In this document: in pieces, positions 9,236 to 44,310 of the stretch
Layout of the letters: every line of letters starts with the position of its first letter
Numbering within the stretch: position 1 is the first letter of the stretch
Origin: Halomonas halophila
GTDB taxonomy: Bacteria > Pseudomonadota > Gammaproteobacteria > Pseudomonadales > Halomonadaceae
Assembly (NCBI RefSeq): GCF_030406665.1
Contig: NZ_CP129121.1
Span: 3,162,256-3,226,255, forward strand
DNA: 64,000 bases
Reading direction: 5' to 3'
Made by a program: the position numbers and the translations under genes
Notes under the pieces: generated by a model
Told to the model about the DNA's origin: nothing
Seen by the model: only the letters and a program-made list of their open reading frames with translations
The model's database searches: none

Positions 9236-12122
<2,887 letters not shown>

Positions 12123-12422: not shown

Positions 12423-12519
12423 TCTGAATACCCATACGTGACATGGGAATTTTATTCAGGACAAGGCGTTTTGTGGCGACGCATAGCCTGCTATGCGAGT
12501 CACAAAACAACGCGGTACT

Positions 12520-12599
<80 letters not shown>

Positions 12600-12702
12600 C
12601 AGACCCATTGGTCACGCTGGGTCTATACCCAAACAGTCTTTTGCTCTGGCCGATCAGATAATTCATTGTGGACACTTGCCGGGTGGCGGTGACGTCGTCG
12701 AT

Positions 12703-14240
<1,538 letters not shown>

Positions 14241-22338: not shown

Positions 22339-24921
<2,583 letters not shown>

Positions 24922-24993
24922 AGCGTTTCCTCCGTCGGGGTAGCGGCGCGATTCGGACGCGCCGCCTGTCCCAATGTCATGAGTCTTGACATC

Positions 24994-25024
24994 TTAAGTG
25001 GCGTCAGGATGGCCGGCTTTCAAG
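24994..25024 (-). promoter_or_regulatory. Candidate sigma-32 (heat-shock) promoter of clpB
   Basis: Minus strand: CTTGAAA-16 nt-CCACTTAA, against the consensus CTTGAAA-N13-15-CCCCATNT. The spacing is 1-2 nt long, hence moderate confidence. Confidence 0.35.
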
Positions 25025-25109
25025 TCAGCCGCCGGAGGAAACGCCGGAGGGTTGATATGGGTCAAGCCCGCGCCCGCGAGGCGTCGGTGCCGGCCAGCAT
25101 CGCGTCGAT

Positions 25110-25994
25110 TCAGGACAACGCCCAGGCGATCAATCCGATGCCCAGCAGGATCACGCCCCATCGCGCCAGCGATACGAGGACCCGCGTATCGTGGTCCACA
25201 TCGCTCGATGCGGAGGCAGAGGACGTCGCCGCCGCCTCGGGAACCGACGCGTCCTGCGCCAAGGCGACGTAGTCCGGTATGGCCTCATCCCACTGATCGA
25301 ACAGAGCGGCATCGCAAGGCGCCAGCTGGTCGCGAAGCACCTCTTCGCCGCCCTCGGGCTTGTGCAGCACGGCAGCACCGGCTTCGTGGACGACCCACAG
25401 ACCGGCGAGGTCACTGTTGATGCCATCGGGCCCCACGGAAAACCGCTCCCAGACTTGTGCCAGTCGCTTGGCATGCTTCTCCAGCGGCGTCCGGACCGGC
25501 TTGTCCGTGACCAGCGAGCAGCGCACCCGCATGGTCCCCTCGTCCGGCGTCTCGACCAGCGCGGAATGCGCAAAGAACGACAGCGCCGTTTGATCGAGCA
25601 TGAACTCCGAGCCGATCAGGCCGATATGGGTCACGCCGTTGTAGAGACAGTCCCGACACAGCTTGAACAGCGAGAAGGCATGGATCTCGAACTCGTGCGT
25701 CGCGCCTCCCGATTCGAGCATTCGCTCGACGCTGGCCCTATCGCATGCGGCTATCGCAAACGGCGTGTCCGGCTCATCGTGCTGAATGTACGGCAAGCGG
25801 CATCCGGTATCGGGGTGCACCATCACCGGCAAGAAGACCTCCCTGTCCCGCCAATGTCGCAACAAGCCGAGCAGGTCGCCGTCTTCAAGCATCCCCGTCA
25901 GCTCATCGAAGGGGTTATCCAGTTGCTGAGATTCCAAGATATGCGTCCTTTCCCTTGAACGTTTCCTACGCCTCGCACCGCCCGCATCACGCAC
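25110..25994 (-). CDS. Hypothetical protein with a single C-terminal transmembrane anchor; last gene of the SPFH/AAA+ cluster
   Basis: 294 aa with protein-like composition; the overlapping plus-strand ORF is Arg-rich antisense. The C-terminus 'VLVSLARWGVILLGIGLIAWALS' is one hydrophobic helix. Acidic linker 'AATSSASASSDVDHD'. A GTG start lies 21 nt after the giant ATPase stop. Confidence 0.55.
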   Translation of the reverse strand: MRDAGGARRRKRSRERTHILESQQLDNPFDELTGMLEDGDLLGLLRHWRDREVFLPVMVHPDTGCRLPYIQHDEPDTPFAIAACDRASVERMLESGGATHEFEIHAFSLFKLCRDCLYNGVTHIGLIGSEFMLDQTALSFFAHSALVETPDEGTMRVRCSLVTDKPVRTPLEKHAKRLAQVWERFSVGPDGINSDLAGLWVVHEAGAAVLHKPEGGEEVLRDQLAPCDAALFDQWDEAIPDYVALAQDASVPEAAATSSASASSDVDHDTRVLVSLARWGVILLGIGLIAWALS

Positions 25995-26015
25995 GACCCG
26001 ACATCGGGCACGGCG

Positions 26016-29000
26016 TTACAAGGAGGCGGGGCGCTCCAGTGCTTCGACGATCATCGACAGCTGCCGCACCACCTTGGTGCCGGTATCCTCATCCCCGCCG
26101 GCTCGCAGGCGTCGCCGAAACTCGGCGCAGATGCCTTCCCAGCGCTCTCGCTCCTCGTCGCTCAGCCTGCCGCGCAACGCCTTGAGCTTGAGCAGGTTCT
26201 CCTCGGCTCCCTGGGTCAGCAGCTGGGCCTCGCCGAGGTAGTGATCGTCGATCAACGCCTCGACTTCGGCCTCGCTCATCGCCGGCGAGAGGCCTTCGAC
26301 CAGCTTGTTCATGTTCCGGTAGCTGCCCTGGAGCCGGAAGACCGGCTCCTCGCGATAGGCATCGTCCTGGGCACAGGCCTCGATGTAGGCCTGATTGACC
26401 CGCATCACGACATCGCGCACGTGATACATGCGCGTGATGAGTTCGACGATGTCCTGTCGCTCGGCGGCACTGTAGTCATGCTCGAAGTCGCTGCTCGCCA
26501 CCTCCTTGCCCTGGGCGAGATCCATGAAGCGATAGACATCGCCCATGCCGTGGTTGACCAGCGGTGCGAGCAGAGGATGCGCCGCGAGACTGTTCTCGAT
26601 GTAGGACATGGCGAACAGCTCCTGGGTGCCGCTCAGCACATCGCCGAGATTGTAGATATCGGCGCGGTTGGCCAGCATGTCGGGCACCCTGAAGGTCTCT
26701 CCCTGCTCGGTATAGGGATTGCCCGCCATCACCACGCCGAAACGCTTGCCCCGCAGGTCGTAGGTCCGCGACTGGCCCCGCCAGACGCCATCGATGCGGC
26801 GACTGCCGTCACACAGCGAGATGAACTTCTGCAGGAACTCGGGATGGGTGTGCTGGATATCATCGAGGTAGAGCATGACGTTGTTGCCCATTTCCAGCGC
26901 CAGGTTGAGCTTCTCCAGCTCGGCCCGGGCAGTGGAATGGGGCGCCTGCTCGGGATCCAGCGCGATCACGTCATGCCCAAGGCTCGGGCAGTTGATCTTC
27001 ATGAACACCAGCCCGAGACGATGCGCCACATACTCCATCAGCGTGGTCTTGCCGTAGCCGGGCGGCGAGATGAGCATCAGCATGCCCATCAGATCGCTGC
27101 GCCGGGCATCCCCCACCGTCCCCATCTGCTTGGCCAGGTTGTCGCCGATGAGCGGCAGATAGCTCTCGGTGATCAGCTGGTTGCGCACGAAGGAGGTGAG
27201 CGGCTTGGGCTGGTACTCCTCGAGTCTCAAGTGGCCACGCTGGCGCTCGAGCAGCTCGTGACGCAAGGCCTGAAGGCGCTCCCAGCCCGGCACCACCTCA
27301 TGATGCCGATGAAGACGATGCTCGAAATCGTCGAGCTGTAGCTTCAGGTAGCGCTGTTCGATGCGGGGATGATCGCCCAGCAGGCCCTCGACCTCGACCG
27401 ACAGTCGAACGTCCCGCTCTTCCCAGCGGATACGCTCATCGGCCTCCACGATGGCCATGGCCTCGGGCAGATAATGGCGTTCGTGGCTGGCGGCGGCCTT
27501 GTCATGCCAGGCCTCGAGCCAGCGCTGGATGGTCAGCCAGCGCTCCACCGGGCGCCCCGCCAGGGCGGTTCGCAGGCGCTCGAATTCGGGGCGATGCGAC
27601 TCCCGGCCGAGCGCCTCCTGGAAGGCCCTGGCCATGCGCATGCCATAGCCACTGGCCTCGAAGGCCTCGCCCTCGGCGGCCAGCTGCTCGACCAGGTAAC
27701 CGGCGGCCGCCTCGATGTCGGCCTCCTCCAGCGACCAGGCCTCGACCAGAGGAAACTGCGCCAGCGAGGTCCGGACTCCGGCGACTAGGTCATCCTTCAG
27801 TCGATCGGAGCCCATCGAGCGCGCGAGGATGCCCGCACTGATGCACTGGGCCTGCAGCACGTCGGGCGTGAGCCCACCCTCCGATGCAGACCAACTTTCC
27901 CGCTCCAGCCACCAGGCCACGGCCAGGGCACGCGCCCAGGGACCATGACGCAATCCGCCGGCGGCCTTCCTGACGGGCTGCAGGGCGCCCAGGATCCGTG
28001 CCGCATCATGATCGTGCACGCCCTTCTCGTAGCCCTCCCGATAGCGGGACGACGCGAAGTCCGCCATCCGCTGCTGCAGGGTCTCGGTATCGGCCACGTT
28101 GAGTCCGGCGTCGCCGTGCTCGATGAGGAAGCGATAGGCCAGGTATTCCCCGCGATAGACGCTCGGCGATTCCGAGGGCAGCGTCTGCCCCCACCATGCG
28201 CGCAGCGCCTCGAGTTCGTCGGACTCGACGGGCTCCTGGAACTGGGTGCCGGTCAGATGCCACCACAGGCGCTCGTCGCGCGGCAGCATGGTCAGTTCCA
28301 GCGCCTGGCGATTGACCGTGAAGCGATGGCGTGGCCCCAGCCGGACCACCTGACCGCCGTCCTCGAACATCTCGGCCTTGTCGCGTACCCCGCGCAGCGC
28401 CGCATCCCGGATGGCGGCCAGCCGGGAATCACGGTCGTCCGCCTCCAGCCCGGCCTGCATCTCGCGCAGCCGATCGATCAGCTCGCGCGCCTTGAGCACC
28501 ATGGCATCCCCGGCGAAGAAGGCCTGCAGCTCCGACTCGTCGTCGAAGCCCTCGCCCCGTCGCTCGAGCCCGCCGAGGATGCGGTCCAGCGCCTGGGTCA
28601 GGGAATCCACACGCTGCTGGCGCGCCTCCATAAGCTGGGCCCGTCGCGCGGCCACGCCCTCCTGGGCGGCCTCACGCTGCTCCAGGATCGCCTCGAGGAA
28701 TCCTTCCTGCTCGCCGAACTGCCCCTCGAGCTCCTGAAGCTGGTCGAGCAGGCGCGTCATGAGATCATCGCACTGCTCGGGCTCGGACAGCCCCGCCAGC
28801 CCGTTCGAGAGCCCCTGTTCGAACAGCCGAAGCCGTGACACGAAGCGCGCCTGGTCCTCTTGCTCCAACATCTCCTTGAGGCGCAGCTCCGCCTCGGTGC
28901 GCTGCTGGTTGGTGGTCGAGTAGACCGACGACAGGGTGTCGTTGATCTGGATCTCGCGCTCGGCATCCTCGCCGCCCAGAGACGCCAGCATCGACTGGAT

Positions 29001-30947
29001 CAGATCCAGCCCCTCGCTGAGCTCGCGATAGCCGTCGACGGCCTTGGCGAGCGCGGGACGCGAATCCGCCTCCTGCACCGATCGGGACAGCGCTTCCAGA
29101 CTCTGCCGATAGCCCTGCAGGGCCTCGGGGGTGGAGAGGAAGGCCAGAGTGCGATCGATCAGGCGGCGCTCGGCCGCTTCGGCCTCGGCGTCCATCTCCG
29201 CCAGGGCGTCACGATCCACGTAGCGGCGTTCTTCCAGGGTCCTGATATCGCCGCGCTGACGGCGAAGATCCCGCAGGCCCGCCATGAAGGGCTCGGGATG
29301 ATGCCAACTATCGGGGGTGAAGCCCCGCAACAGCGCCGACTGGCGCTGCCGGCACTCTTCCACCGCCTCGGCGCTGTCGCGCTGGATCTGATGGACCTTC
29401 TCGAACTCGTCGAGCACCCTTTCACTGCCTTCGCGCAGCTCCTTGAGCAAGGCGGGAAAGGCCGCTTCCTCCAGACCGACCTCGTCGCTCACCTCGGCGA
29501 GCCAGTAGAACTGGTCCAGCAGCCGGTCACAGTGACGGATCAGGCGCTTGAAGTGATCGTCGCTGGCATGCAGCCGATCGATCAGGCTCTGCAGGGCGTT
29601 GAGCTCGGCCACGGCACGCACCAGCTCGGGATTGCCGATACGGCTCAGCATGCTGTCGTTGGCGAAGGCCTGCTGGGCATGAAACGTTTCCGACATGAAC
29701 GGCGTCCGCCAGATCTGCAGCGGATGCACCAGCGACGGCTCCTGATCGGCGCTGAACAGGGCCAGATAGCCATTATCGAACAGCGCGGCCCCGTGACCGA
29801 TCAACGGGGCATCGGCCTGGCGCTTCACCAGGCTGTAACGGTAGAGCACCACCCGTCCGCTGGCCTGACCATAGAAGGCGAACAGCATGTCCTCCCCGTT
29901 GGGCGCCCGTCGGGCCGGCAACGGCCGCAGCGACTCGTCGGGCACGTCGAACAGCTTGTGCTCGCCGTTCATCAGGCAGTAGCCGGCGGGGAAGATCAGG
30001 CCATGATGGTCAGGCAGCAGGACGAAGCCGTCATCCAGCGCATCGAGACGCTGCAGCCGGAGCGTCTCGCGATGGAAGACATAGTAGCGATGCCTGGCCT
30101 CGCCATAGGGCAGTATCCTGACGATCAGCAGCTCATTGAGGTCGGCGTACTCGAAGCTGGCGTCGTCCAGCGACTGGGAGTCCGACTCCACCGGATCATC
30201 GAAGATGCCTTCGCCGCTGTCGGTGTTGTTCTCGATCTTGAAGGTGATGCTGCCGCCGAGGTTATCGACGAACAGGGTGTCGGCGATATTCAGGTGAGGC
30301 GCCCGCCCCTGAACATGATCATCGCGTCCCGCCCGTATCCAGCTCACCGCATGGCGATCCGGATAGACGAGTTGGCGCTCCCCCCGGTTATCGACGTAGG
30401 GTCCGACATTGCCCTCCGCCGTCAGCTCCCAGCGAAAGACGCGACGATCATCGAGCTTCTCGCCGATCTGGAAGACCATCAGCAGCATGCCTTCCAGCAC
30501 CGTCAACCGCGACAGCAGCGCATGGCTGTAATACTGCTGCAGTTCGGCGAAGTCGGTGCGGAAGCGCGGGTCATCGAGGAAACTGTCGGCAATGGCGGAC
30601 TCGCCCACCGCGAAGGTCGATTCGCCATCGCCCTGATCGACCCGATAGAGGCGGAAGACGTCCTCGACCTTCAGGGCATTGCGCAGCCCGAGCTGGACAT
30701 GGAAGCCGAACAGCAGATGCGAACCGATCCGCACCACGTCACGGGCCACCGACTTCAGCTCGGTGCGGACCCTGCCCCGGCCCAGCACGCTCATCGTGGT
30801 ACTGCCGAACTCGCGTTCACGCTGGTCGTTGAGGGCCTGGGTGGCCTGATGAAGCCTCTGGCCCTGCTGTTGCAGACGTTTCGTCAACACCGAGAAGGCA
30901 GAGCCCTCCTCGACCAGACGTTCGAGGGTAGATTCATGTTGCGACAT
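26016..30947 (-). CDS. Giant (~1643 aa) protein with a C-terminal AAA+ ATPase module and a long helical N-terminal region; function unknown
   Basis: Start set at ATG 30947 (MSQHESTLERL) with AGGAA SD 9 nt upstream. The maximal ORF begins with TTG 30977. Near the C-terminus: Walker A 'LISPPGYGKTTL', Walker B 'VMLYLDDIQH' (DD, not DE), sensor-1 'VVMAGNPYTE', Arg 'MLANRADIY'. This resembles the MoxR/dynein/midasin clade. Residues 400-1150 are helical, Glu/Arg/Leu-rich and coiled-coil-like. There is no signal peptide or TM segment. Confidence 0.85.
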   Translation of the reverse strand: MSQHESTLERLVEEGSAFSVLTKRLQQQGQRLHQATQALNDQREREFGSTTMSVLGRGRVRTELKSVARDVVRIGSHLLFGFHVQLGLRNALKVEDVFRLYRVDQGDGESTFAVGESAIADSFLDDPRFRTDFAELQQYYSHALLSRLTVLEGMLLMVFQIGEKLDDRRVFRWELTAEGNVGPYVDNRGERQLVYPDRHAVSWIRAGRDDHVQGRAPHLNIADTLFVDNLGGSITFKIENNTDSGEGIFDDPVESDSQSLDDASFEYADLNELLIVRILPYGEARHRYYVFHRETLRLQRLDALDDGFVLLPDHHGLIFPAGYCLMNGEHKLFDVPDESLRPLPARRAPNGEDMLFAFYGQASGRVVLYRYSLVKRQADAPLIGHGAALFDNGYLALFSADQEPSLVHPLQIWRTPFMSETFHAQQAFANDSMLSRIGNPELVRAVAELNALQSLIDRLHASDDHFKRLIRHCDRLLDQFYWLAEVSDEVGLEEAAFPALLKELREGSERVLDEFEKVHQIQRDSAEAVEECRQRQSALLRGFTPDSWHHPEPFMAGLRDLRRQRGDIRTLEERRYVDRDALAEMDAEAEAAERRLIDRTLAFLSTPEALQGYRQSLEALSRSVQEADSRPALAKAVDGYRELSEGLDLIQSMLASLGGEDAEREIQINDTLSSVYSTTNQQRTEAELRLKEMLEQEDQARFVSRLRLFEQGLSNGLAGLSEPEQCDDLMTRLLDQLQELEGQFGEQEGFLEAILEQREAAQEGVAARRAQLMEARQQRVDSLTQALDRILGGLERRGEGFDDESELQAFFAGDAMVLKARELIDRLREMQAGLEADDRDSRLAAIRDAALRGVRDKAEMFEDGGQVVRLGPRHRFTVNRQALELTMLPRDERLWWHLTGTQFQEPVESDELEALRAWWGQTLPSESPSVYRGEYLAYRFLIEHGDAGLNVADTETLQQRMADFASSRYREGYEKGVHDHDAARILGALQPVRKAAGGLRHGPWARALAVAWWLERESWSASEGGLTPDVLQAQCISAGILARSMGSDRLKDDLVAGVRTSLAQFPLVEAWSLEEADIEAAAGYLVEQLAAEGEAFEASGYGMRMARAFQEALGRESHRPEFERLRTALAGRPVERWLTIQRWLEAWHDKAAASHERHYLPEAMAIVEADERIRWEERDVRLSVEVEGLLGDHPRIEQRYLKLQLDDFEHRLHRHHEVVPGWERLQALRHELLERQRGHLRLEEYQPKPLTSFVRNQLITESYLPLIGDNLAKQMGTVGDARRSDLMGMLMLISPPGYGKTTLMEYVAHRLGLVFMKINCPSLGHDVIALDPEQAPHSTARAELEKLNLALEMGNNVMLYLDDIQHTHPEFLQKFISLCDGSRRIDGVWRGQSRTYDLRGKRFGVVMAGNPYTEQGETFRVPDMLANRADIYNLGDVLSGTQELFAMSYIENSLAAHPLLAPLVNHGMGDVYRFMDLAQGKEVASSDFEHDYSAAERQDIVELITRMYHVRDVVMRVNQAYIEACAQDDAYREEPVFRLQGSYRNMNKLVEGLSPAMSEAEVEALIDDHYLGEAQLLTQGAEENLLKLKALRGRLSDEERERWEGICAEFRRRLRAGGDEDTGTKVVRQLSMIVEALERPASL

Positions 30948-31025
30948 GGACGACGGATTCCTGACTCGGGAGGGCAATAACGGTCTGCCTCCCCCGCCCG
31001 ACAGGCCGGGGGAGGCAGAGAGGGG

Positions 31026-32975
31026 TCACGAGGCCTGGTCGACCACCGACGGGGCGGCGGTGTCCGTCGCCATCATGCGGGTGGCGAGCTGGGAGAGTAC
31101 GCCTTGCAGGGCCGGAGACTTGTCCATCACCCCCTGGACGCTCTTGCCGATGCCCAGTCCCTTGGCGAAGGTGTCGAAGATCTGGCCATCGCCGCCGACC
31201 ATTTCGAACTTGGCTCCTTTCAGCGCCTCGGCCATCACCTTGCCGTTCTCGAGGATGCCTTCGCGCTGCATCTCGATGCGGCCCAGCGTGTCCTTCTCGG
31301 CCAGTTCCATCTGCATGCGGAACTGCTCGAAGTCGCGGGCCTCCTGCGACATTCCCTCGTAGGCACGCAGCTTCTCGACCAGGCCATTGGCCTCGGCACG
31401 TGCCATGGCTTCGCGCGCCTGGGCCTTGGCCACGCCCATCTTCTGCTCGCCCTCGGCCTCGGCATCGAGCCGCTGCTCCAGCACCCGCACCTCGGCCAGG
31501 CCAGCCTTTTCCTCGGACTCTGCGCTAGCGCTCCTGACCTCGGCTTCCGCCAGGCCTTCGGAACGATGGGCGCGCGCCTTGGCCTCCAGCACCTGCGCCT
31601 CGGCCAGCCCTTCGGCCGCGGCCCGCGCCCGGTGGCCACGCGCTTCCTTCTCGTCGGCTTCGGCCTTGCGCTCGGCGGCATCCGAGTCGGCCTGCGCACG
31701 TACCAGAACCTCGTCGGATTCCAGCTTGGCACGCTCATATGCCGCCTCGGCGGCCCGCAGTTCCTTGATCTTGACTTCCTCGGCCTCCGCCTCGGCCGCG
31801 GTCACGCTGGCCACCTTGAGACGCTCGGCCTCGGCACGATTCCTCACATCGTTGATGTGCTCTTCTTCCTCGGCCACCTGGCGCTCGACGGAAATGCGCT
31901 CGCTGGTGATGACCGCGATATCCTTGCGCTCGGCCTCCAGCGATTTTTCCATGCCGATGCGCTCGACCTCGACGCTGCGCTGCCGGTTGACGTCTTCCAT
32001 CTCGCGGGCCTGCGCGATGCGCACGTCCTCGATCTGTACCGCCCGCTCCCGGGCCTTGATCGCCATCTCGACCTGGCGCTGCTTGGTTTCCTCGGCGATG
32101 GCCACAGCCTCGTCGGTCTTGATGCGTGCCGCCTCGGCCTTGGAACGCTCCTCCTCGCGAACCTGCTCGGTCTCGGCAGATTCCCTGGCACGGAGGGTGT
32201 CGATCTCACGCTGCTGACGCGCCTCGGCATCGGCCTGGGTGCGCTCCAGCTCCAGTGCCGCTTCACGGGCAGACACGTTCTTGCGCTGGATTTCCAGCTC
32301 CTCATCACGCTCCAGACGATTGGTCTCGACGTTGTGCTGAGCCGTGATTTCGGTGATGCGACGGATACCCTCGGAATCGAGGATATTGTGCTGATCCAGC
32401 GAGGTCTTCGGCGTCTGCTCGAGATAGTCGATGGCCACATCTTCGAGCACGTAACCATTGAGATCCTCACCGATGGTCTCGACGATCATGTCCCGGAAAT
32501 GCTGGCGCTCCTCGAACAGCTGCATGAATTCGAGGCGCTTGCCCACCGTTTTCAGGGCTTCGCTGAACTTGGCATTGAACAGCTCGTTGACGGCCACGCG
32601 ATCGGACGCCCGCGTTACCCCGACCGATTTCGCCACGCGCAGCACGTCCTCTGCCGTCTCGTTGACGCGCAGATAGAAGGCCACGGTAATATCGGCTCGG
32701 AGGTTATCCTTGCAGATCAGTCCTTCGTTGCCGGTACGGTTCATCTCCAGGGTAATGACCGAGACCTTCATGGTTTCGGCACGGTGAATGACCGGCAGCA
32801 CCATGGCGCCGGTGAAATACACCTTGGGCACCGAGGAAAGATCATTGACGATCAGCGCCTGCCCCTGATCGATCTTGCGATAAAACGCCTTAATCAGGCA
32901 CAGGACGCCGACCAGGGCAAGCAGCAACACGCCGATAGCAATGGCGACCGGCATAATCCAACTCATGTTCATCAT
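31026..32975 (-). CDS. yqiK: Flotillin-like SPFH (band-7) protein, YqiK-type, with an extended coiled coil
   Basis: N-terminal TM segment 'IMPVAIAIGVLLLALVGVLCLI', an SPFH domain, then ~350 aa of EA/ER-rich coiled coil ('EAEARQQREIDTLRARESAETEQVREEERSKAEAARIK...'). AGGAG SD 5 nt before ATG 32975. Follows an NfeD-like gene, as in E. coli yqiJK. Confidence 0.9.
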   Translation of the reverse strand: MMNMSWIMPVAIAIGVLLLALVGVLCLIKAFYRKIDQGQALIVNDLSSVPKVYFTGAMVLPVIHRAETMKVSVITLEMNRTGNEGLICKDNLRADITVAFYLRVNETAEDVLRVAKSVGVTRASDRVAVNELFNAKFSEALKTVGKRLEFMQLFEERQHFRDMIVETIGEDLNGYVLEDVAIDYLEQTPKTSLDQHNILDSEGIRRITEITAQHNVETNRLERDEELEIQRKNVSAREAALELERTQADAEARQQREIDTLRARESAETEQVREEERSKAEAARIKTDEAVAIAEETKQRQVEMAIKARERAVQIEDVRIAQAREMEDVNRQRSVEVERIGMEKSLEAERKDIAVITSERISVERQVAEEEEHINDVRNRAEAERLKVASVTAAEAEAEEVKIKELRAAEAAYERAKLESDEVLVRAQADSDAAERKAEADEKEARGHRARAAAEGLAEAQVLEAKARAHRSEGLAEAEVRSASAESEEKAGLAEVRVLEQRLDAEAEGEQKMGVAKAQAREAMARAEANGLVEKLRAYEGMSQEARDFEQFRMQMELAEKDTLGRIEMQREGILENGKVMAEALKGAKFEMVGGDGQIFDTFAKGLGIGKSVQGVMDKSPALQGVLSQLATRMMATDTAAPSVVDQAS

Positions 32976-33003
32976 CGGGACTCCTCTGTCCTCATCTTCT
33001 GAC

Positions 33004-33612
33004 TCATTCCATGTCCCCGGAAAGGAACTGATGTTCGGTCACGACCCAGTAGGCACGCTGTTCCGGGAGATGCCGTATCAGCACCACCTGATCGCGACGC
33101 TCCAGCGCCGAGTCGGACTGGATGTTGATGACCAGCTCCGCACCATCACGCCGCACCCTGGCACGACCGCGACCACGATCGGCACTGAAGGACACCACCA
33201 CGGCGGTTTCGCCCTGAAGGTTTCTCTTCCGCGGTGCACTGTAGAGATGCCGAAAGGCGGGCCCGAGCAGCCGCGCCATGCCGATTGCGGCCACGAGCCC
33301 CACCACGATGCTCACCGCGGCCACGATGCTCCCTACCAGCAGGCCATGCCCCAGGAGCAGCCCCAGGAAATAGCTGCTCAGCCAGGCTCCCAGCGTCATC
33401 ACCGTCATCGTCAACGGCAGCGGGACGCCACTCAGTCCCAGGGTCGCCATCAGGCCGCCCAGCCCGCTCATACCCTCCAGATCGACGTCGAGATCCATAT
33501 CGAGGTCGAAAGCACCCAGCAAGGAAATCAGCCAGTACAGGACCGATACGACGAGCAGGATCCCGAAGAATGCGGTAGGCAAAGACAGCATTTCCGTCCA
33601 GAAGGTCTCCAC
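33004..33612 (-). CDS. yqiJ: NfeD-like / YqiJ-family (DUF1449) inner-membrane protein
   Basis: 202 aa. N-terminal TM helices and the 'DLDMDLDVDLEGMSGLGG' acidic loop typical of YqiJ, with a C-terminal OB-fold-like soluble domain. GTG 33612 has 'gggagaagagg' SD; ATG 33591 is an alternative. Stop is 28 nt before the flotillin start. Confidence 0.75.
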   Translation of the reverse strand: METFWTEMLSLPTAFFGILLVVSVLYWLISLLGAFDLDMDLDVDLEGMSGLGGLMATLGLSGVPLPLTMTVMTLGAWLSSYFLGLLLGHGLLVGSIVAAVSIVVGLVAAIGMARLLGPAFRHLYSAPRKRNLQGETAVVVSFSADRGRGRARVRRDGAELVINIQSDSALERRDQVVLIRHLPEQRAYWVVTEHQFLSGDME

Positions 33613-34192
33613 GCCTCTTCTCCCTATCGGCGGCCATCACATCGACACTTGCCATCGGCAAGAAATAAAAAAAAGGCCGCAAAGATACCAGCATCGTTTC
33701 TCACTGCGGAGTGCTTTCATGGCGTTATCACTCGGACACCGTCAGGCAACGAGCCGAGAGGTGATTCCAGAGAAAAACCCACACATCAAAAATAACTTAT
33801 TGAAATAAAACCCTTTCTCCGAGGGAAAACGCCCCATCAAGAAGAATGATAACGAGTGTCATCCGACAATAGGTAAGCGATCTCCTACAAGAAAATGCAG
33901 AAAATACTTACGCGAAAAAAAGTCACCGGAATTCGTCACCAGCATCGACCTGGCGGTTAGGCGAGACGCTCGTTTCTCGTCCGCGCTCTCCCAATGCGAG
34001 AACACGGCGCACCGTAAGTGCTGATAGGCATGTACAAGGAAGGTGCCGGAAAGCGCGGGGAGATCGCCTCGCTATGTCGGCAGGCGATACGTCGTACTAA
34101 CAGGCGAGGAGCGGGCGGCCAGACGATCCCCCCACTTTCCCGGGTCTACCGAGCCAGGGGAGTCCTGCCGACCGACAGCAACGGAGGTGTGG

Positions 34193-34948
34193 CTAGCGCA
34201 GCCAGATCATGCTGGCCATGCGGCCGGTGACGCCGTCGTCACGGCGGTAGGAATAGAAGCGGGATTCGCAGGCGGTGCAGAAGTGGCCGCCGCTGATATG
34301 GGACAGTCCCAGCCGTTCCAGGCGCAGGCGCGCCAGCTTGTACAGGTCGGCCATGTAGTGGCCCAGCCGATAGGGGCTCGGCACGAAGGCCTCGGCGGCA
34401 TCGGGCTGCACGGCGACGAAGGCCTCGCGCACCTCGCGCCCGACCTCGAACTGGGCATTGGAGATCGCCGGCCCCAGCCAGGCCATCAGCGACTCGGGCG
34501 GCGCGCCCATGGCGGCCACCGTGGCCTCGAGCACGCCGCCGGCCAGGCCGCGCCAGCCGGCGTGGGCCACGCCGACCCGCTGGCCGTCGCGGTCGCAGAA
34601 GAACACCGGCAGGCAGTCGGCGGTCAGCACCACGCAGGCATGACCACGGTCGAGGGCCACCGAGGCATCGGCCTCGGGCGGGGTCTCGAGGTATTCCGAC
34701 TGCACCCGGGCGCCGTGGGCCTGATCGAACCACAGCAACGGCCGGTCGTCGCCGACCTCCTTCTGCAGCTGGCGGCGGCACAGTGCCACGTGGGCAGCGT
34801 TGTCGCCGACGTGCTGCGCCGGATTGAAGGCGGCGAAGCGCCCTTGACTGGGCCCGGTCTCGCGGGTGGTAACGCAGGCCGCCACCGAGGGCGGCGCCGG
34901 CCAGTCGGGGCGAATCAGGGTCGGGCGCAGGTCGAGGGCATCGCTCAT
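34193..34948 (-). CDS. pgeF: Purine nucleoside phosphorylase / peptidoglycan editing factor PgeF (YfiH family)
   Basis: 'VLTADCLPVFFCDRDGQRVGVAHAGWRGLAGGVLE' is the YfiH/DUF152 Cys-His motif. Downstream of rluD, as in E. coli. Confidence 0.9.
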   Translation of the reverse strand: MSDALDLRPTLIRPDWPAPPSVAACVTTRETGPSQGRFAAFNPAQHVGDNAAHVALCRRQLQKEVGDDRPLLWFDQAHGARVQSEYLETPPEADASVALDRGHACVVLTADCLPVFFCDRDGQRVGVAHAGWRGLAGGVLEATVAAMGAPPESLMAWLGPAISNAQFEVGREVREAFVAVQPDAAEAFVPSPYRLGHYMADLYKLARLRLERLGLSHISGGHFCTACESRFYSYRRDDGVTGRMASMIWLR

Positions 34949-34958
34949 CGCGGTTTCC

Positions 34959-35933
34959 TTAGCGGCGAGTCTCGCGGTCTTCGCGCAGGAAGTCCAGCAG
35001 CATCAGCATGTCATCCGGCAGGGCGGCGCGAAAGGTCAGCGTCTCGCCGCTGGTCGGGTGCACGAAGGCCAGCTTGCGGGCGTGCAGCGCCTGGCGGGGG
35101 AACTCGCGCAGTACCTCCTTGAGCGTCTCGCCGGCGCCGGCCGGCAGCTTGAGGCGCCCGCCGTAGACCGGGTCGCCGATCAGCGGATAGTGCAGGTGCG
35201 CCAGGTGCACGCGGATCTGGTGGGTGCGGCCGGTCTCCAGCTTGCAGCGCACGTGGGTGTGGGCGCGGAAACGCTCGACCACCCGATAGTGCGTCACCGC
35301 CGGCTTGCCGGAGGCGGTCACCGCCTGGCGCTTGCGGTCCTTGGGGTGACGGCCGATGGCCGCGTCCACCTTGCCGCCGGAGGTCATTACCCCGACCGAG
35401 ACGGCGTCGTACTCGCGGGACACGGTACGCGCCTGGAGCTGCTCCACCAGCGCGGTCTGGGCGCCCAGGGTCTTGGCCACCACCATCAGCCCGCTGGTGT
35501 CCTTGTCCAGGCGATGCACGATGCCGGCCCGCGGCACCGCCGCCAGCGCGGGACAGTGATGCAGCAGGCCGTTGAGCAGGGTGCCATCGGGATTGCCGGC
35601 GGCCGGGTGCACCACCAGGCCGGGCGGCTTGTTGATCACCAGCACCTCGTCGTCCTCGTACACCACATCCAGCGGGATGTCCTCGGGCTCGAAGCGGGCA
35701 TCGTCCTCGACCGTCGCGGTCAGCGCCACGGCCTCGCCGCCGTAGACCTTGTCACGGGGCTTGGCGGGACGGCCGTCCAGGGTCAGCGCGCCCTCCTTGA
35801 TCCAGGCCTTGAGGCGTTCCCGGGAGAAGTCGGAGAAGAGGTCGGCGGCGGCCTGGTCGAGGCGCAGGCCGGCCATGTGCTCGGGGACGCGGTGCTGGGC
35901 TTCGAAGGTCTGGGACATGGACTCGATGATCAT
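34959..35933 (-). CDS. rluD: 23S rRNA pseudouridine(1911/1915/1917) synthase RluD
   Basis: S4 domain N-terminus and RluA-family catalytic '[16 protein letters not shown]'. Divergent from bamD, as in E. coli. Confidence 0.9.
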
Positions 35934-36068
35934 CCGTCTGGGCGGTGGAGCGCTCCGCGGCAGCGCGCTCGGCGCGGTGACTGCGTTTTGCCACGAGGTG
36001 CTTTATAGTGGGCGAATTCGGGCCGATTCTAGCACGGCCACCCAGGGTTGTTTGACACGAGGATCACG

Positions 36069-36878
36069 ATGCGCGTTATCACGACCGGACCCCGCCTGGC
36101 CGTCATGCTGCTGGCGAGTGCCCTGCTGGCCGGCTGTGCCAGTTCTCAGGAGCAGGAGGCGCCTGACCTGCAGGAACGCCAGCTGTACGACGAGGGACGC
36201 TCGGCGCTGGAGGGCGGACGCTTTACCACCGCCATCAACCGGCTCGAAGCCATCGACACCCGCTTCCCGTTCGGCGATACCGCCGAGCAGGCCCAGCTGG
36301 AACTGATATACGCCTACTACCAGACCGACGACTGGGAGAAGGCGCGGGCCGCGGCCAGCCGTTTCATCCGCCTGCACCCGGACCATCCCCAGGTCGACTA
36401 CGCCTACTACCTGCGCGGTCTCTCCGCCTGGCAGGCCGGGCGCTTCAGCCTCGAAGGGCTGCGGCTGATCGACATCTCCAAGCGCGACCTGGGCGCCACC
36501 CGCGACGCCTATTCCGACTTCCGCGAGCTGGTCCAGCGCTTCCCCGACAGCCAGTACGCGCCGGATGCCCAGCAGCGCATCGTCTACCTGCGCAACGTGC
36601 TGGCCCGCCACGAGCTGCAGGTGGCCGACTTCTACCTGCGCAAGGGCGCCTACCTGGCGGCCGTCGAGCGTGGCCGCTGGGTCATCGAGCACTACCCCGA
36701 GGCACAGGCCACCCGTGACGCCCTGGCGACCATGGTCGAGGGCTACCTGGGGCTCGACATGACCGAGCGGGCGCGCGAGACCCTGCGGGTGCTGATCGAC
36801 AACGCCCCGGACCACGAGCGCCTCGACGGCCGCACCTTCGACCCGCAGTACGTCGACGCGGCCCCGATCACCGCCTGA
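36069..36878 (+). CDS. bamD: Outer-membrane protein assembly factor BamD (lipoprotein, TPR-like)
   Basis: Lipobox 'LLAGC'. 'AIDTRFPFGDTAEQAQLELIYAYY...HPDHPQVDYAYYLRGL' are BamD/ComL TPR motifs. ATG 36069 with 'gagga' SD. Confidence 0.9.
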   Translation: MRVITTGPRLAVMLLASALLAGCASSQEQEAPDLQERQLYDEGRSALEGGRFTTAINRLEAIDTRFPFGDTAEQAQLELIYAYYQTDDWEKARAAASRFIRLHPDHPQVDYAYYLRGLSAWQAGRFSLEGLRLIDISKRDLGATRDAYSDFRELVQRFPDSQYAPDAQQRIVYLRNVLARHELQVADFYLRKGAYLAAVERGRWVIEHYPEAQATRDALATMVEGYLGLDMTERARETLRVLIDNAPDHERLDGRTFDPQYVDAAPITA

Positions 36879-40454: not shown

Positions 40455-41018
40455 ATGGCACCCGACGCCGCCGAAGAACGCTACCTTACCGACAAGCCGC
40501 GTAACTTGGCAAAGCCCGCCGCCAGGGGCTTCACGCTGATCGAGCTGCTGGTGGCGCTGGCGGTGCTGGTGATCATGGCCACCGTGGCCGTGCCCGGCTT
40601 TCAGCGGATGATGGCGCGAAATGAAGTGGCCGCCGAGGTGATGCGGCTAAAGTCAGCACTCGCCATGACGCGCAGCGCCGCCATTACCCGGCGCAGTACC
40701 GTGACCCTCTGCCCCACCGTCGACATGACCCAATGTCGGATCGACAACAACGCCGACGGAAAAGCCTGGCTGGCCACACTGGCCATCTTCGAAGGGCGCG
40801 GCGAACCCGGTGATGCTCTGCTGCGCAGCTTCGACGAGAGCCGCCTGCCGTCGCTGACCTACCGCAACGATAACCGTCCGGTGCGCTATGCGGCACTGGG
40901 CCGATCATCGGGGTATAACGGTACCTTTCGTCTCTGCGGGCGGCACGAAGAGGGCGCCAGGGTCATCGTCAATAACGTTGGTCGGGTTCGCGTCGATTCC
41001 CGGCGGCCTCCTTGTTGA
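40455..41018 (+). CDS. fimT: Type IV pilus minor pilin FimT (GspH-family pseudopilin)
   Basis: Prepilin peptidase site and N-terminal helix '[26 protein letters not shown]'. GspH/FimT-like size. The 24-aa leader is long, so the true start may be later. Confidence 0.75.
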   Translation: MAPDAAEERYLTDKPRNLAKPAARGFTLIELLVALAVLVIMATVAVPGFQRMMARNEVAAEVMRLKSALAMTRSAAITRRSTVTLCPTVDMTQCRIDNNADGKAWLATLAIFEGRGEPGDALLRSFDESRLPSLTYRNDNRPVRYAALGRSSGYNGTFRLCGRHEEGARVIVNNVGRVRVDSRRPPC

Positions 41019-41124
41019 TAGAGTACAGCCTCGCCAAGCACTTGACCTTTTTCCGGCCCACCGATGAGTCATTGGGGAGACAAGGTGTACGACATCACCT
41101 TTACAACGCTTCCCGGGAAAGGCA

Positions 41125-42825: not shown

Positions 42826-42896
42826 TTCCACACCTGGACGGATGTTGAGCGGCGTTCTGATATTCCGATGACGTGACTCATATTGCCTCACTCTAT

Positions 42897-43448
42897 TCAG
42901 TCAGAACCAGAAGCATGCCTGACGGCCTCTGTTCTATTGACGGCAAGGAAACGTAACGTATCCGGTGCCCCATCCTGCCCTGCCGGAACAAGCTCCAGCA
43001 TGACCGTCACGCCATAATCCCCTGCAGAGGCGACGCGGAACCCATTATTCGTCAGGCCGCTCACCACTTCCTGGGCACCAGCCCCGTCGTTTTTATCGAT
43101 CGTCAGGGCGTAACCATGGCCCGCCTCTCCCGCCATGTCCCCCAGTCGATAAGTGACATCGCGCACGCTTCCCGATTCGCAATCGCCACCATCGGGCAGG
43201 GTCAGAGTCAGACTGTCCCCGTTCATCGTTTCACTGGCAGCCGCCTTGTTCCAGCAGGCGCGCCTGATGTCTCTCAACAGCGAATCGACGGCGAAGTTCA
43301 CCGCCGCCTGCTTTTCACCGAGCGCCTCCACCTGGCGCTGGGTCTGAAACACCGTCAGGAACAGTTGGCCGGCCCCCAGGATGATGACCAGGCCAATCAC
43401 CATAGCCACCATCAGTTCGACAAGAGAAAAGCCGCGGCTATGCTTCAT
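42897..43448 (-). CDS. pilW: Type IV pilus assembly protein PilW (minor pilin)
   Basis: Start at ATG 43448 (MKHSRGFSLVELMVAMVIGLVIILG), overlapping the pilV stop as ATGA. Prepilin N-terminal motif GFSLVE. Confidence 0.75.
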   Translation of the reverse strand: MKHSRGFSLVELMVAMVIGLVIILGAGQLFLTVFQTQRQVEALGEKQAAVNFAVDSLLRDIRRACWNKAAASETMNGDSLTLTLPDGGDCESGSVRDVTYRLGDMAGEAGHGYALTIDKNDGAGAQEVVSGLTNNGFRVASAGDYGVTVMLELVPAGQDGAPDTLRFLAVNRTEAVRHASGSD

Positions 43449-44307: not shown

Positions 44308-44310
44308 AGG

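What the first reader, a model, noticed from the sequence alone, without database searches (positions are those of the whole stretch)
25110..33612. Four-gene cluster coupling an NfeD/YqiJ-flotillin pair to a giant AAA+ ATPase and a tail-anchored protein: a candidate SPFH-scaffolded ATPase machine
Seen in sequence:
- Four genes sit on the minus strand with short gaps: yqiJ-like, then 28 nt, flotillin, then 48 nt, the ~1643-aa AAA+ protein, then 21 nt, the 294-aa C-terminal-TM protein.
- The next gene, clpB, has its own putative sigma-32 promoter.
- A 0.5-kb AT-rich non-coding region lies upstream, so co-transcription is likely.

Established knowledge:
- SPFH proteins with NfeD partners form membrane microdomains or cages. 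The best-understood case, HflK/C, cages the AAA+ protease FtsH.

Inference:
- A MoxR/dynein-like AAA+ module fused to ~1250 aa of helical, coiled-coil-like sequence sits directly after a flotillin with a ~350-aa coiled coil. This suggests a different AAA+ engine working on or inside a flotillin assembly.
- Possible roles are membrane remodelling or repair, stress response, or phage/conflict defence.
- I do not recognise this large protein as a characterised family.
Basis: partly seen in the sequence, partly recalled or inferred. Interest (0 to 1): 0.85.

Follow-up and report, generated by a model that had tools for sequence, protein, structure and literature searches.

The report
Flotillin–YqiJ–giant AAA+ ATPase gene module
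This Halomonas locus carries a widespread, tightly linked three-gene module (a small membrane protein, a flotillin-type membrane scaffold and a 1,643-residue ATPase); it is real and experimentally unstudied but already described by comparative genomics, and the fourth gene is a strain-specific orphan.

Summary
The four minus-strand ORFs exist as described. Three form a conserved module: a YqiJ-like 3TM protein, a YqiK-type flotillin, and an ATPase of 1,643 aa.

- **ATPase architecture:** N-terminal helix, β-propeller (Pfam DUF3686), coiled coil (DUF7902), helical middle domain, C-terminal AAA+.
- **Forward linkage:** in 85 loci from at least six phyla, all 81 with upstream sequence have the flotillin gene upstream on the same strand; 78 also have the YqiJ-like gene.
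- **Reverse linkage:** 70 of 70 informative metagenomic loci chosen by the flotillin carry the ATPase downstream.
- **PspA link:** about half the loci add a YjfI(CesT/Tir)–PspA dyad. This 64-kb window has none, so it is the abbreviated form.
- **Fourth gene:** it has one homologue among 5.8 billion proteins, so it is an ORFan, not a component.

This operon type was already described computationally (Ravi et al., mSystems 2024, PMC11237479). I found no experimental work. The NCBI name "DNA repair ATPase" has no support, and no anti-phage defence model matches.

Most likely function (inferred): an envelope-stress or membrane-remodelling module in which the ATPase remodels flotillin and/or PspA assemblies.

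Verdict: observation confirmed, interpretation partly supported, new member of a known kind.

The parts
33004..33612 (-). YqiJ/YuaF-type small inner-membrane protein (202 aa): N-terminal TM, acidic loop, further TM segments, C-terminal beta-rich domain
   Evidence: ORF. Hydropathy TM segments at 4-39 and 80-120. The family profile A3 matches E. coli YqiJ by hhalign at 94.3% probability, E=1e-7. Pfam YqiJ_N is hit by only 1 of 24 family members. The gene lies upstream of the flotillin in 78 of 85 genome loci and 69 of 76 metagenome loci. A GGGAGAAGAGG Shine-Dalgarno precedes the GTG start.
31026..32975 (-). Flotillin (YqiK-type SPFH protein, 649 aa): N-terminal TM anchor, SPFH/Band-7 domain, long E/A-rich coiled coil, conserved C-terminal region
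   Evidence: ORF. TM segment at 1-35. phmmer matches human Flotillin-1 (9l3g) at E=5e-5 over residues 38-390. Profile A2 matches E. coli YqiK by hhalign at 99.9%, E=4e-33. Pfam Band_7 is hit by 4 of 25 members. The subfamily is 42-74% identical across phyla.
30985..31018 (-). GC-rich hairpin (12-13 bp stem) in the flotillin-ATPase spacer, with no T-run after it
   Evidence: Sequence. RNAfold gives -36.7 kcal/mol for the 78-nt spacer, z=-3.0. Stable structure at this junction recurs: 45% of 78 loci have z<-2 against 10% of coding controls.
26016..30947 (-). Giant ATPase, 1,643 aa (NCBI name 'DNA repair ATPase'): N-terminal helix, beta-propeller, coiled coil, helical middle domain, C-terminal AAA+
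   Evidence: 100% identical to P0001. Pfam DUF3686 at E=5e-155, DUF7902 at E=2e-13, AAA_5 at E=3e-7. AlphaFold2 models have pLDDT 89.4 and 86.6.
29706..30791 (-). Beta-propeller domain of the ATPase (residues ~53-414; core of DUF3686)
   Evidence: About 28-30 strands group into roughly seven four-stranded units. Foldseek top hits are all beta-propellers (Sec12 at E=3e-6, DCAF1 WD40, clathrin terminal domain, Ski8, prolyl oligopeptidase, TolB), with 105 hits at E<=1e-3.
28368..29690 (-). Long helical / coiled-coil region of the ATPase (residues ~420-860), including DUF7902
   Evidence: Continuous long helices in both models. Pfam DUF7902.
27180..28367 (-). Conserved middle region (residues ~861-1256): small beta unit, helical bundle and a further small beta unit, with the invariant motif R-Y-x-E-G-Y-x-K-G-V-H-D-x-D-A (Y973, G976, H978, D981)
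   Evidence: Invariant columns in alignment A1. Secondary structure. Function unknown.
26019..27179 (-). AAA+ module (residues ~1257-1643): Walker A SPPGYGKTT (27042-27068), Walker B LYLDDIQH (26850-26870), sensor-1 N1410, R1428, lid with QGSYRNM
   Evidence: Motifs are invariant in 18 diverse homologues. Pfam AAA_5, AAA and AAA_22 hits. Foldseek matches RuvB, ClpA/B/C D2, Skd3, MCM, CbbQ and NorQ at E of 5e-5 to 5e-4. A beta-hairpin lies between helix 3 and strand 4 in the model.
25110..25937 (-). Lineage-restricted ORFan (275 aa from TTG; 294 aa from GTG 25994) with a C-terminal TM. Adjacent to the conserved module but not part of it.
   Evidence: One homologue among 5.8e9 proteins (P0271, 96% identical, Halomonas sp. 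ND22Bw). No Pfam, NCBIfam or PADLOC hit. TM at 271-294. Absent in H. denitrificans at the same site.
33613..34192 (.). AT-richer 580-nt non-coding region upstream of the module, presumed to hold the promoter
   Evidence: No sigma-70, sigma-54, sigma-32 or sigma-E consensus match found.

Best explanation
The locus is an 'abbreviated' copy of a widespread three-gene bacterial module, in the order YqiJ/YuaF-type 3TM protein, YqiK-type flotillin, then a large soluble ATPase (beta-propeller, coiled coil, AAA+).

Shown here:
- The three genes are mutually obligate neighbours across phyla.
- About half of all copies sit beside a YjfI(CesT/Tir)-PspA(YjfJ) dyad.
- All AAA+ catalytic motifs are invariant.
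- The fourth ORF is not part of the module.

Inferred mechanism:
- The flotillin, with YqiJ, assembles an SPFH scaffold or cage on the cytoplasmic face of the inner membrane.
- The ATPase docks on it through its propeller and coiled-coil arm.
- ATP hydrolysis is used to remodel, open or disassemble the flotillin assembly, and PspA polymers where a PspA gene is encoded nearby.
- The module would then serve membrane maintenance or envelope-stress repair.
- This is functionally analogous to Vps4 acting on ESCRT-III, but the ATPase is not homologous to Vps4.
- A hairpin after the flotillin gene probably keeps the scaffold in excess over the enzyme.

Confidence that this is that module is about 0.95. 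Confidence in the mechanism is about 0.4-0.5.
For: - Gene order and linkage: flotillin upstream on the same strand in 81 of 81 informative genome loci, YqiJ-like in 78. The median flotillin-to-ATPase gap is 100 nt and the YqiJ-to-flotillin gap 37.5 nt.
- Reverse test: 70 of 70 informative metagenome loci.
- The trio moves as a unit. It is at a different chromosomal site in Vreelandella titanicae and at the same site without the fourth gene in H. denitrificans.
- The PspA + DUF2170 dyad is present in 42-43 of 85 genome loci and PspA in 52 of 80 metagenome loci.
- Homology to E. coli YqiK and YqiJ.
- Propeller and AAA+ folds; invariant catalytic motifs.
- The published description of the same architecture and neighbours, PMC11237479.
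- An archaeal parallel of SPFH genes beside Vps4/ESCRT-III, PMC10936438.
- The recurrent junction hairpin.
Against: - No experimental data exist for any member (literature searches).
- This window has no PspA or YjfI gene in 64 kb, so the PspA link is indirect here.
- No physical interaction or complex model could be computed.
- The loop after strand 2 (consensus P-S-L-G-H) lacks the aromatic pore-loop residue typical of threading unfoldases (read), so the mode of action on substrates is unclear.
- No stress-type promoter was found.
- The AAA+ clade is unresolved.
Confidence: 0.6

Rival explanations
1. Membrane-protein extraction or quality-control machine. The flotillin microdomain corrals client membrane proteins. 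The AAA+ ATPase acts on those clients rather than on the scaffold, pulling out or unfolding them, in some lineages after intramembrane cleavage by a co-encoded rhomboid protease. This would be a functional analogue of HflK/C-FtsH or of erlin/derlin/p97 in ERAD.
For: - A small 6-TM rhomboid gene overlaps the ATPase stop codon (-4 nt) in about 9 loci.
- Zn-ribbon proteins lie adjacent in about 9 loci, and Zn-ribbon-rhomboid fusions lie nearby in 3 Marinobacter loci.
- HSP70 and DUF1266 genes lie downstream in Marinobacter.
- The P-loop stretch resembles p97/Cdc48/Rix7 most closely by sequence, E about 5e-5.
- Fold matches include the Clp D2 unfoldases.
Against: - Rhomboid is present in only about 17% of loci and is absent from this window.
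- There is no protease domain or TM segment in the ATPase.
- There is no canonical aromatic pore loop.
- The p97 similarity is confined to about 34 residues around Walker A.
Confidence: 0.2
2. Anti-phage or conflict system. The flotillin/YqiJ pair senses membrane perturbation by phage and the giant ATPase is the effector or switch.
For: - The module interrupts the conserved rluD-pgeF(yfiH)/clpB block.
- Its GC3 is lower (0.77-0.84 against 0.90-0.95 in the flanks).
- It sits at different chromosomal sites in related genera, has a patchy distribution, and is adjacent to an ORFan.
Against: - No meaningful PADLOC match for any of the four proteins.
- No nuclease, protease, NADase or pore-forming effector domain.
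- Sequence conservation across phyla is very high (AAA+ module 47-65% identical to the window protein, mostly above 56%; flotillin 42-74%). From general knowledge, this is unlike fast-evolving defence genes.
- The recurrent neighbours are PspA, YjfI, rhomboid and Zn-ribbon genes, not defence genes.
Confidence: 0.08
3. The protein is a DNA-repair ATPase, as its NCBI and Pfam names say.
For: Only the inherited name ('ATPase involved in DNA repair', PF12458), plus RuvB among the generic AAA+ fold matches.
Against: - No DNA-binding, nuclease or helicase domain.
- RuvB matches are no better than Clp, MCM or MoxR matches.
- The invariant neighbours are membrane proteins.
- No paper in the searched library mentions DUF3686 or PF12458.
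Confidence: 0.02
4. One reading: a four-component machine that includes the 294-aa C-terminal-TM protein.
For: Same strand, a short gap (21-78 nt), GC3 similar to the module (0.78), and a C-terminal TM segment.
Against: - One homologue among 5.8 billion proteins.
- Only one weak hit, to a 538-aa ORF in one Marinobacter locus, among the 85 related genome loci.
- H. denitrificans has the trio at the same site directly followed by clpB.
- The genes found at this position elsewhere (rhomboid, soluble Zn-ribbon proteins) have a different layout.
Confidence: 0.03

Closest known systems
CesT/Tir(YjfI)-PspA(YjfJ)-YqiJ/YuaF-flotillin-'beta-propeller+coiled-coil+AAA+ ATPase' operon and its abbreviated forms (Ravi, Anantharaman, Aravind et al., mSystems 2024, PMC11237479; exemplar Dokdonia donghaensis)
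   Same: Same three proteins, in the same order and with the same domain architectures. The paper explicitly mentions abbreviated operons that lack the PspA dyad, which is what this window has.
   Different: This copy lacks the CesT/Tir-PspA dyad and the phospholipase D gene seen in some Proteobacteria. It carries a strain-specific ORFan instead. I could not retrieve the Dokdonia ATPase sequence to prove family identity directly. The DUF3686 family does include Bacteroidota (Niabella).
E. coli YqiJ-YqiK and B. subtilis YuaF-FloT (NfeD-type partner plus flotillin)
   Same: A two-gene core of a small multi-TM protein followed by a TM-SPFH-coiled-coil flotillin, homologous at profile level.
   Different: E. 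coli yqiJK has no downstream ATPase. The flotillins linked to the ATPase form a separate, highly conserved subfamily. It is about 30% identical to YqiK but 42-74% identical within itself, and is always followed by the ATPase.
HflK/C-FtsH (SPFH cage enclosing an AAA+ protease)
   Different: FtsH is membrane-anchored and carries a zinc-protease domain. This ATPase has no TM segment and no protease domain, and instead has a propeller and coiled coil. HflK/C and ftsH are not operon partners in this obligate way.
Vps4-ESCRT-III, including archaeal loci that add an SPFH-coiled-coil-Zn-ribbon protein (Makarova et al., mBio 2024, PMC10936438)
   Same: An AAA+ ATPase encoded beside an ESCRT-III-superfamily polymer (PspA in about half the loci) and an SPFH protein, with Zn-ribbon proteins recurring nearby.
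   Different: There is no MIT domain and no assignment to the classical AAA clade beyond a short P-loop similarity. A 2025 review states that a Vps4-like ATPase appears absent in bacteria (PMC7619361). The comparison is an analogy of function, not membership.
MoxR-type AAA+ (Pfam AAA_5; CbbQ, NorQ)
   Same: The best Pfam AAA hit is AAA_5 (31 bits against a cutoff of 22). CbbQ and NorQ give the highest target-normalised TM-scores, 0.51-0.56. From my own reading, the motifs NPYTE...IPDMLANRAD resemble MoxR sensor-1 and Arg-finger motifs.
   Different: No VWA-domain partner recurs in the neighbourhood. No helix-2 beta-hairpin insert is evident in the model. RuvB and Clp D2 have better E-values.

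Membership tests
Flotillin-YqiJ-(propeller-coiled-coil-AAA+) operon of Ravi et al. 2024 | 3TM YqiJ/YuaF-type protein encoded first | tested here: met
   hhalign of profile A3 against E. coli YqiJ gives 94.3% probability, E=1e-7. TM segments. Position is conserved in 78 of 85 loci.
Flotillin-YqiJ-(propeller-coiled-coil-AAA+) operon of Ravi et al. 2024 | [quoted passage not shown] | tested here: met
   hhalign of profile A2 against E. coli YqiK gives 99.9%, E=4e-33. phmmer matches Flotillin-1 at E=5e-5. TM at 1-35.
Flotillin-YqiJ-(propeller-coiled-coil-AAA+) operon of Ravi et al. 2024 | AAA+ ATPase fused to an N-terminal beta-propeller and coiled coil, encoded third | tested here: met
   AlphaFold2 models. 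Foldseek finds propeller hits and AAA+ hits. Pfam AAA_5 and AAA.
Flotillin-YqiJ-(propeller-coiled-coil-AAA+) operon of Ravi et al. 2024 | CesT/Tir (YjfI/DUF2170)-PspA (YjfJ) dyad adjacent (full form only) | tested here: not met
   No PspA or DUF2170 homologue in the 64-kb window. The dyad is present in 42-43 of 85 related loci. This locus therefore matches the 'abbreviated' form described in the paper.
Flotillin-YqiJ-(propeller-coiled-coil-AAA+) operon of Ravi et al. 2024 | ATPase is the same sequence family as the published Dokdonia exemplar | not testable with these tools
   The exemplar sequence could not be fetched. Indirectly, the architecture and neighbours are identical, and the DUF3686 family includes Bacteroidota (Niabella).
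SPFH / flotillin family | SPFH (Band-7) domain after an N-terminal membrane anchor, followed by an E/A-rich coiled coil | tested here: met
   The window protein itself misses Pfam Band_7, which 4 of 25 family members hit, the best at E=5e-11.
SPFH / flotillin family | Forms large oligomeric rings or cages on the membrane | not testable with these tools
   Needs cryo-EM or a multimer prediction. Not available here.
NfeD family | C-terminal OB-fold (NfeD) domain | tested here: inconclusive
   The C-terminal beta-rich segment aligns with that of E. coli YqiJ. There is no Pfam NfeD hit and no PDB hit with the family profile at E<=1.
AAA+ superfamily | Walker A, Walker B, sensor 1, arginine finger and a helical lid | tested here: met
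   GYGKTT, LYLDDIQH, N1410, R1428 and QGSYRNM are invariant in 18 diverse homologues. The alpha/beta core plus lid is modelled at high confidence, and Foldseek gives AAA+ hits. Note that Walker B is D-D rather than D-E.
   No recurrent VWA gene in 85 neighbourhoods. No helix-2 hairpin is evident. Clade assignment is ambiguous. Only the Pfam AAA_5 hit favours MoxR.
HflK/C-FtsH-type system | AAA+ partner is membrane-anchored and carries an M41 protease domain | tested here: not met
   No TM segment and no peptidase domain in the ATPase.
Vps4 / ESCRT-III system | MIT domain, classical-clade AAA and an adjacent ESCRT-III gene | tested here: not met
   No MIT domain. Only a 34-residue P-loop similarity to classical AAA proteins. 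A PspA neighbour is present in about half of the loci but not here.
Known anti-phage defence systems | Match to a curated defence-protein model | tested here: not met
   PADLOC gives no hit for three of the proteins. For the ATPase it gives only P-loop-level hits (IetA and mad8, E about 5e-3).
DNA-repair ATPases (current database name) | DNA-binding or nuclease domains, or DNA-repair gene context | tested here: not met
   No such domains. The context is membrane proteins in all loci. No literature.

The most novel reading that the evidence does not exclude
The DUF3686 ATPase is the missing bacterial energy source for SPFH and ESCRT-III-type membrane scaffolds. In this reading it is a non-homologous functional counterpart of Vps4 (or p97) that opens or recycles closed flotillin cages and PspA/YjfJ polymers. 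Bacteria are currently thought to lack a Vps4-like remodeller (PMC7619361), and nobody knows how sealed SPFH domes are opened, so this would answer both questions with one tractable three-gene system.
Probability: 0.25. Interest if true: 0.8.

Novelty: new member of a known kind. Interest (0 to 1): 0.45.

Why it matters
Bacterial flotillins are much studied, but their mechanism is still unclear. Recent structures show SPFH proteins forming closed cages, and nobody knows how these are loaded or opened.

A dedicated flotillin subfamily that is always encoded with a large, highly conserved AAA+ ATPase gives a direct experimental handle on that question. The module is present in at least 573 species genomes, and the ATPase's DUF3686 domain in 601 clusters at 50% identity.

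It also bears on whether bacteria have an ATP-driven remodeller for PspA/ESCRT-III-like polymers.

Practically, the analysis corrects a propagated misannotation ('DNA repair ATPase'). It also shows that the core is three genes rather than four, which defines the minimal construct to clone.

The association itself is not new (Ravi et al. 2024), so the value lies in quantifying it and making it testable.

Tried and rejected
- **Pfam, NCBIfam and PADLOC on the window proteins:** nothing for YqiJ-like, flotillin-like or the fourth ORF, even at E=10. Homology had to be shown with family profiles against E. coli YqiJ and YqiK.
- **Family profiles against PDB sequences:** no hit for the flotillin or YqiJ families.
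- **AAA+ clade assignment:** sequence hits cover only the P-loop and fold hits spread over RuvB, Clp, MCM and MoxR, so it is left unresolved.
- **Promoter search:** no sigma-70 consensus. There is no convincing sigma-54, sigma-32 or sigma-E enrichment upstream of the module in 77 + 33 loci, and none in the window.
- **Greedy ORF clustering of neighbourhoods:** it under-counted the flotillin because long antisense ORFs overlap it in high-GC genomes. The HMM-based counts are the reliable ones.
- **Iterated 'Zn-ribbon' profile:** it became contaminated by alternative-frame ORFs inside the flotillin gene. Only hits adjacent to the ATPase or with E<1e-44 were accepted.
- **Second homologue search with a profile:** it returned mostly the same gamma-proteobacterial set and added little diversity.
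- **Literature:** searches for DUF3686, PF12458, 'DNA repair ATPase' + flotillin, and YqiK + YqiJ + ATPase found nothing.
- **First script run and first metagenome scan:** the first script timed out on a MAFFT alignment of the giant protein and the first metagenome scan attempt errored. Both were repeated successfully.
- **Fourth ORF as an analogue of the recurrent accessory genes:** considered and rejected, because those are soluble Zn-ribbon proteins or 6-TM rhomboids.

Full report
**1. Observation**

The window comes from a Halomonas. The ATPase is 100% identical to an NCBI 'MULTISPECIES: DNA repair ATPase [Halomonas]' protein.

Four ORFs lie head to tail on the minus strand at the stated coordinates:
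- 33004-33612, 202 aa.
- 31026-32975, 649 aa.
- 26016-30977, of which the real gene is most likely 26016-30947 (1,643 aa, ATG with an AGGA Shine-Dalgarno).
- 25110-25994, for which the only homologue starts at the TTG at 25937, giving 275 aa.

Upstream lies a 580-nt AT-richer non-coding stretch. Downstream is clpB, with an exact sigma-32 -35 box, CTTGAAA, at 25018-25024. No minus-strand terminator-like site lies inside the cluster.

**2. What the proteins are**

*ATPase.* It hits Pfam DUF3686 ('ATPase involved in DNA repair', E=5e-155) at the N-terminus. It also hits DUF7902 in the middle and AAA_5/AAA/AAA_22 near the C-terminus.

AlphaFold2 models of residues 1-620 (pLDDT 89.4) and 780-1643 (pLDDT 86.6) give this layout:
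- a long N-terminal helix;
- a beta-rich domain at ~53-414 whose strands group into about seven four-stranded units;
- about 440 residues of long helices;
- a conserved middle region with small beta units and a helical bundle;
- a C-terminal AAA+ core with lid.

The AAA+ part matches RuvB, ClpA/B/C D2, Skd3, MCM and the MoxR proteins CbbQ and NorQ about equally, at E of 5e-5 to 5e-4. Sequence-profile hits to p97, Rix7 and NVL cover only about 34 residues around the P-loop. The model shows a beta-hairpin before sensor 1 but no obvious helix-2 insert. I therefore leave the clade open and do not endorse 'MoxR/dynein-like'.

Walker A (SPPGYGKTT), Walker B (LYLDDIQH, D-D rather than D-E), N1410, R1428 and a QGSYRNM lid motif are invariant in 18 homologues down to 31% identity. 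The enzyme is therefore almost certainly an active ATPase.

An invariant motif in the middle region, RYxEGYxKGVHDxDA, has no assigned function.

*Flotillin-like and YqiJ-like proteins.* Both miss every Pfam model, even at E=10. However:
- The flotillin-like protein hits human Flotillin-1 by phmmer at E=5e-5.
- Its family profile matches E. coli YqiK at 99.9% probability, E=4e-33, over the TM, SPFH and coiled-coil parts.
- The small protein's family profile matches E. coli YqiJ at 94% probability, E=1e-7.
- Hydropathy gives the expected N-terminal TM in the flotillin and multiple TM segments in the YqiJ-like protein.

*Fourth ORF.* It has one homologue among 5.8 billion proteins, a 96%-identical hypothetical protein in Halomonas sp. 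ND22Bw. It has no domain hits and a C-terminal TM segment.

**3. Neighbourhood statistics**

The DUF3686 domain has 601 clusters at 50% identity with E<=1e-3 among 1.84 billion representatives. Full-length members are consistently about 1,600-1,900 aa.

I fetched 80 loci spanning gamma-, beta- and zeta-proteobacteria, Myxococcota, Actinomycetota (Nocardiopsis), Planctomycetota, Acidobacteriota and a Clostridia MAG. Bacteroidota (Niabella) and Vibrio also carry it.

Iterated HMMs seeded with the window's own proteins gave these counts over the 85 loci:

| Feature | Count |
|---|---|
| Flotillin-like gene upstream, same strand | 81 of 85 |
| Loci without it | 4, all starting within 400 nt of a contig end, so 81 of 81 informative |
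| YqiJ-like gene before the flotillin | 78 |

The median gaps are 100 nt (flotillin to ATPase) and 37.5 nt (YqiJ to flotillin).

For the reverse test, I took 80 metagenomic loci chosen by similarity to the flotillin (47-74% identity). All 70 with at least 1.5 kb of downstream sequence carry the ATPase downstream on the same strand (the one apparent exception was a filter artefact). E. coli yqiJK, whose flotillin is only about 30% identical, has no such ATPase.

The partnership is therefore mutual and specific to a flotillin subfamily.

The fourth ORF's family gives only one weak hit, to a 538-aa ORF in one Marinobacter locus. H. denitrificans has the trio at the same chromosomal site, followed directly by clpB. 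V. titanicae has the trio at another site. The conserved unit is three genes.

**4. Wider context**

A DUF2170 (YjfI) + PspA_IM30 (YjfJ-like) dyad flanks the trio in 42-43 of 85 genome loci, and PspA is present in 52 of 80 metagenome loci. The window has none in 64 kb.

Less frequent accessories are as follows:
- a small 6-TM rhomboid whose start overlaps the ATPase stop, in about 9 loci;
- soluble double-CxxC Zn-ribbon proteins adjacent to the ATPase, in about 9 loci;
- Zn-ribbon-rhomboid fusions nearby in Marinobacter.

No VWA protein, nuclease or other family recurs.

In this genome the module sits between pgeF(yfiH)-rluD/bamD and clpB. From my own knowledge of E. coli gene order, that block is contiguous in E. 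coli. The module's GC3 is 0.77-0.84 against 0.90-0.95 in the flanking genes. This suggests an old insertion shared with H. denitrificans.

**5. Comparison with the literature**

Ravi, Anantharaman, Aravind and colleagues (mSystems 2024, with a 2020 preprint; PMC11237479) describe this operon. Their description is CesT/Tir-PspA combined with three proteins:
[quoted passage not shown] They note that abbreviated operons without the dyad are more widely distributed.

They propose a chaperone-like, membrane-dynamics role by analogy with Vps4/ESCRT-III. I found no experimental study.

A 2025 review states that a Vps4-like ATPase appears absent in bacteria and that the Band-7 partners of PspA have undetermined roles (PMC7619361). 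Makarova et al. 2024 report archaeal ESCRT loci with an SPFH-coiled-coil-Zn-ribbon protein beside Vps4 and ESCRT-III (PMC10936438). That is a notable parallel.

**6. Mechanism**

Shown:
- obligate three-gene linkage;
- frequent PspA linkage;
- membrane anchoring of two components and a soluble third;
- intact ATPase motifs;
- a propeller and long helical arm suited to protein-protein docking.

Inferred:
- The flotillin and YqiJ build an SPFH assembly at the inner membrane.
- The ATPase binds it and uses ATP to remodel or recycle it, and PspA polymers where a PspA gene is encoded nearby.
- The module serves membrane maintenance or envelope stress.

A GC-rich 12-13-bp hairpin follows the flotillin stop codon (30985-31018; -36.7 kcal/mol; z=-3.0). 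Stable structure at this junction recurs, with 45% of loci at z<-2 against 10% of coding controls. This fits a design in which the scaffold is made in excess over the enzyme. The controls used mononucleotide shuffles, so this is suggestive only.

Rivals:
- Client extraction or quality control, possibly rhomboid-coupled, about 0.2.
- Anti-phage or conflict system, about 0.08. There are no PADLOC hits and no effector domain, and conservation is unusually high.
- DNA repair, about 0.02, resting on the name only.
- A four-component machine that includes the ORFan, about 0.03.

**7. Verdict**

However, the module has three genes rather than four. The ATPase architecture was partly misread. The family is catalogued in Pfam as DUF3686 + DUF7902, and the operon type has been published.

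It is a new member of a known but experimentally untouched kind. Interest is 0.45: it would not surprise specialists who know the 2024 paper, but it offers a clean and tractable route into how bacterial flotillin and PspA scaffolds are energised.

Noticed in passing
window 30985-31018 (minus strand); also the flotillin-ATPase junction in L001-L085: A perfect 12-13-bp GC hairpin with no T-run sits between the flotillin stop codon and the ATPase start. Stable structure at this junction recurs in related loci: 45% have z<-2 against 10% of coding controls. It may be a partial terminator or a 3' stabiliser that sets scaffold-to-enzyme stoichiometry.
   Followed up: partly
window 24922-34192, with flanks 34193-36878 and 22339-24921: The module interrupts the rluD-pgeF(yfiH)/clpB block next to bamD. 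Its GC3 is 0.77-0.84 against 0.90-0.95 for the flanking genes. H. denitrificans (L004) has the same insertion site, whereas Vreelandella titanicae (L003) carries the trio elsewhere. This suggests old horizontal acquisition of the trio as a unit.
   Followed up: partly
window 25110-25994: The ORFan with a C-terminal TM segment has a single homologue (96% identical) in all public data. Its GC3 of 0.78 resembles the module rather than the flanks. Its origin and function are unknown.
   Followed up: yes
L001 15361-16494; L010, L011, L013, L015, L022, L056, L082; L002, L009 and L014 upstream; L043, L047, L053 and L084: In other lineages a small 6-TM rhomboid overlaps the ATPase stop codon by 4 nt. 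Soluble double-CxxC Zn-ribbon proteins lie next to the ATPase, and Marinobacter has Zn-ribbon-rhomboid fusions nearby. This hints at intramembrane proteolysis as an optional part of the system.
   Followed up: partly
L004 (H. denitrificans), 169 nt upstream of the YqiJ-like ORF: A near-consensus sigma-54 promoter, TGGCACGGGCGTTGCC, is present there but not in the window. Sigma-54-like matches upstream of the module are only weakly enriched overall (9 against 4.8 +/- 1.8 in shuffles).
   Followed up: partly
window 26016-30947, and database names of homologues (P0001-P0120): The name 'DNA repair ATPase' is propagated from the legacy title of Pfam DUF3686 and has no supporting evidence. One homologue is even named 'ElaB/YqjD/DUF883 family membrane-anchored ribosome-binding protein'.
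   Followed up: yes
window 28018-28067 (residues ~961-976 of the ATPase... motif spans Y973-D981, approx. 28005-28031): An invariant motif, R-Y-x-E-G-Y-x-K-G-V-H-D-x-D-A, lies in the helical middle domain of the ATPase and is conserved down to 31% overall identity. Nothing explains it. It could be a partner-binding or catalytic site.
   Followed up: no
window 31104-33002 (+) and 28860-30980 (+): Long antisense ORFs of 632 and 706 aa overlap the flotillin and ATPase genes. Similar antisense ORFs occur in 39 related loci and confused a naive gene picker. They are most likely artefacts of high GC content and E/A-rich codon repeats, not genes.
   Followed up: partly
window 9030-14240 (minus strand): A complete rRNA operon (16S, two tRNAs, 23S, 5S) explains the stretch that lacks protein-coding ORFs.
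   Followed up: yes
window 40455-44721: A cluster of minor-pilin or pseudopilin genes (GspH/FimT-like, PilX_N + DUF7305, N_methyl proteins) has lower GC3 (0.73-0.77) than the surrounding genes.
   Followed up: no
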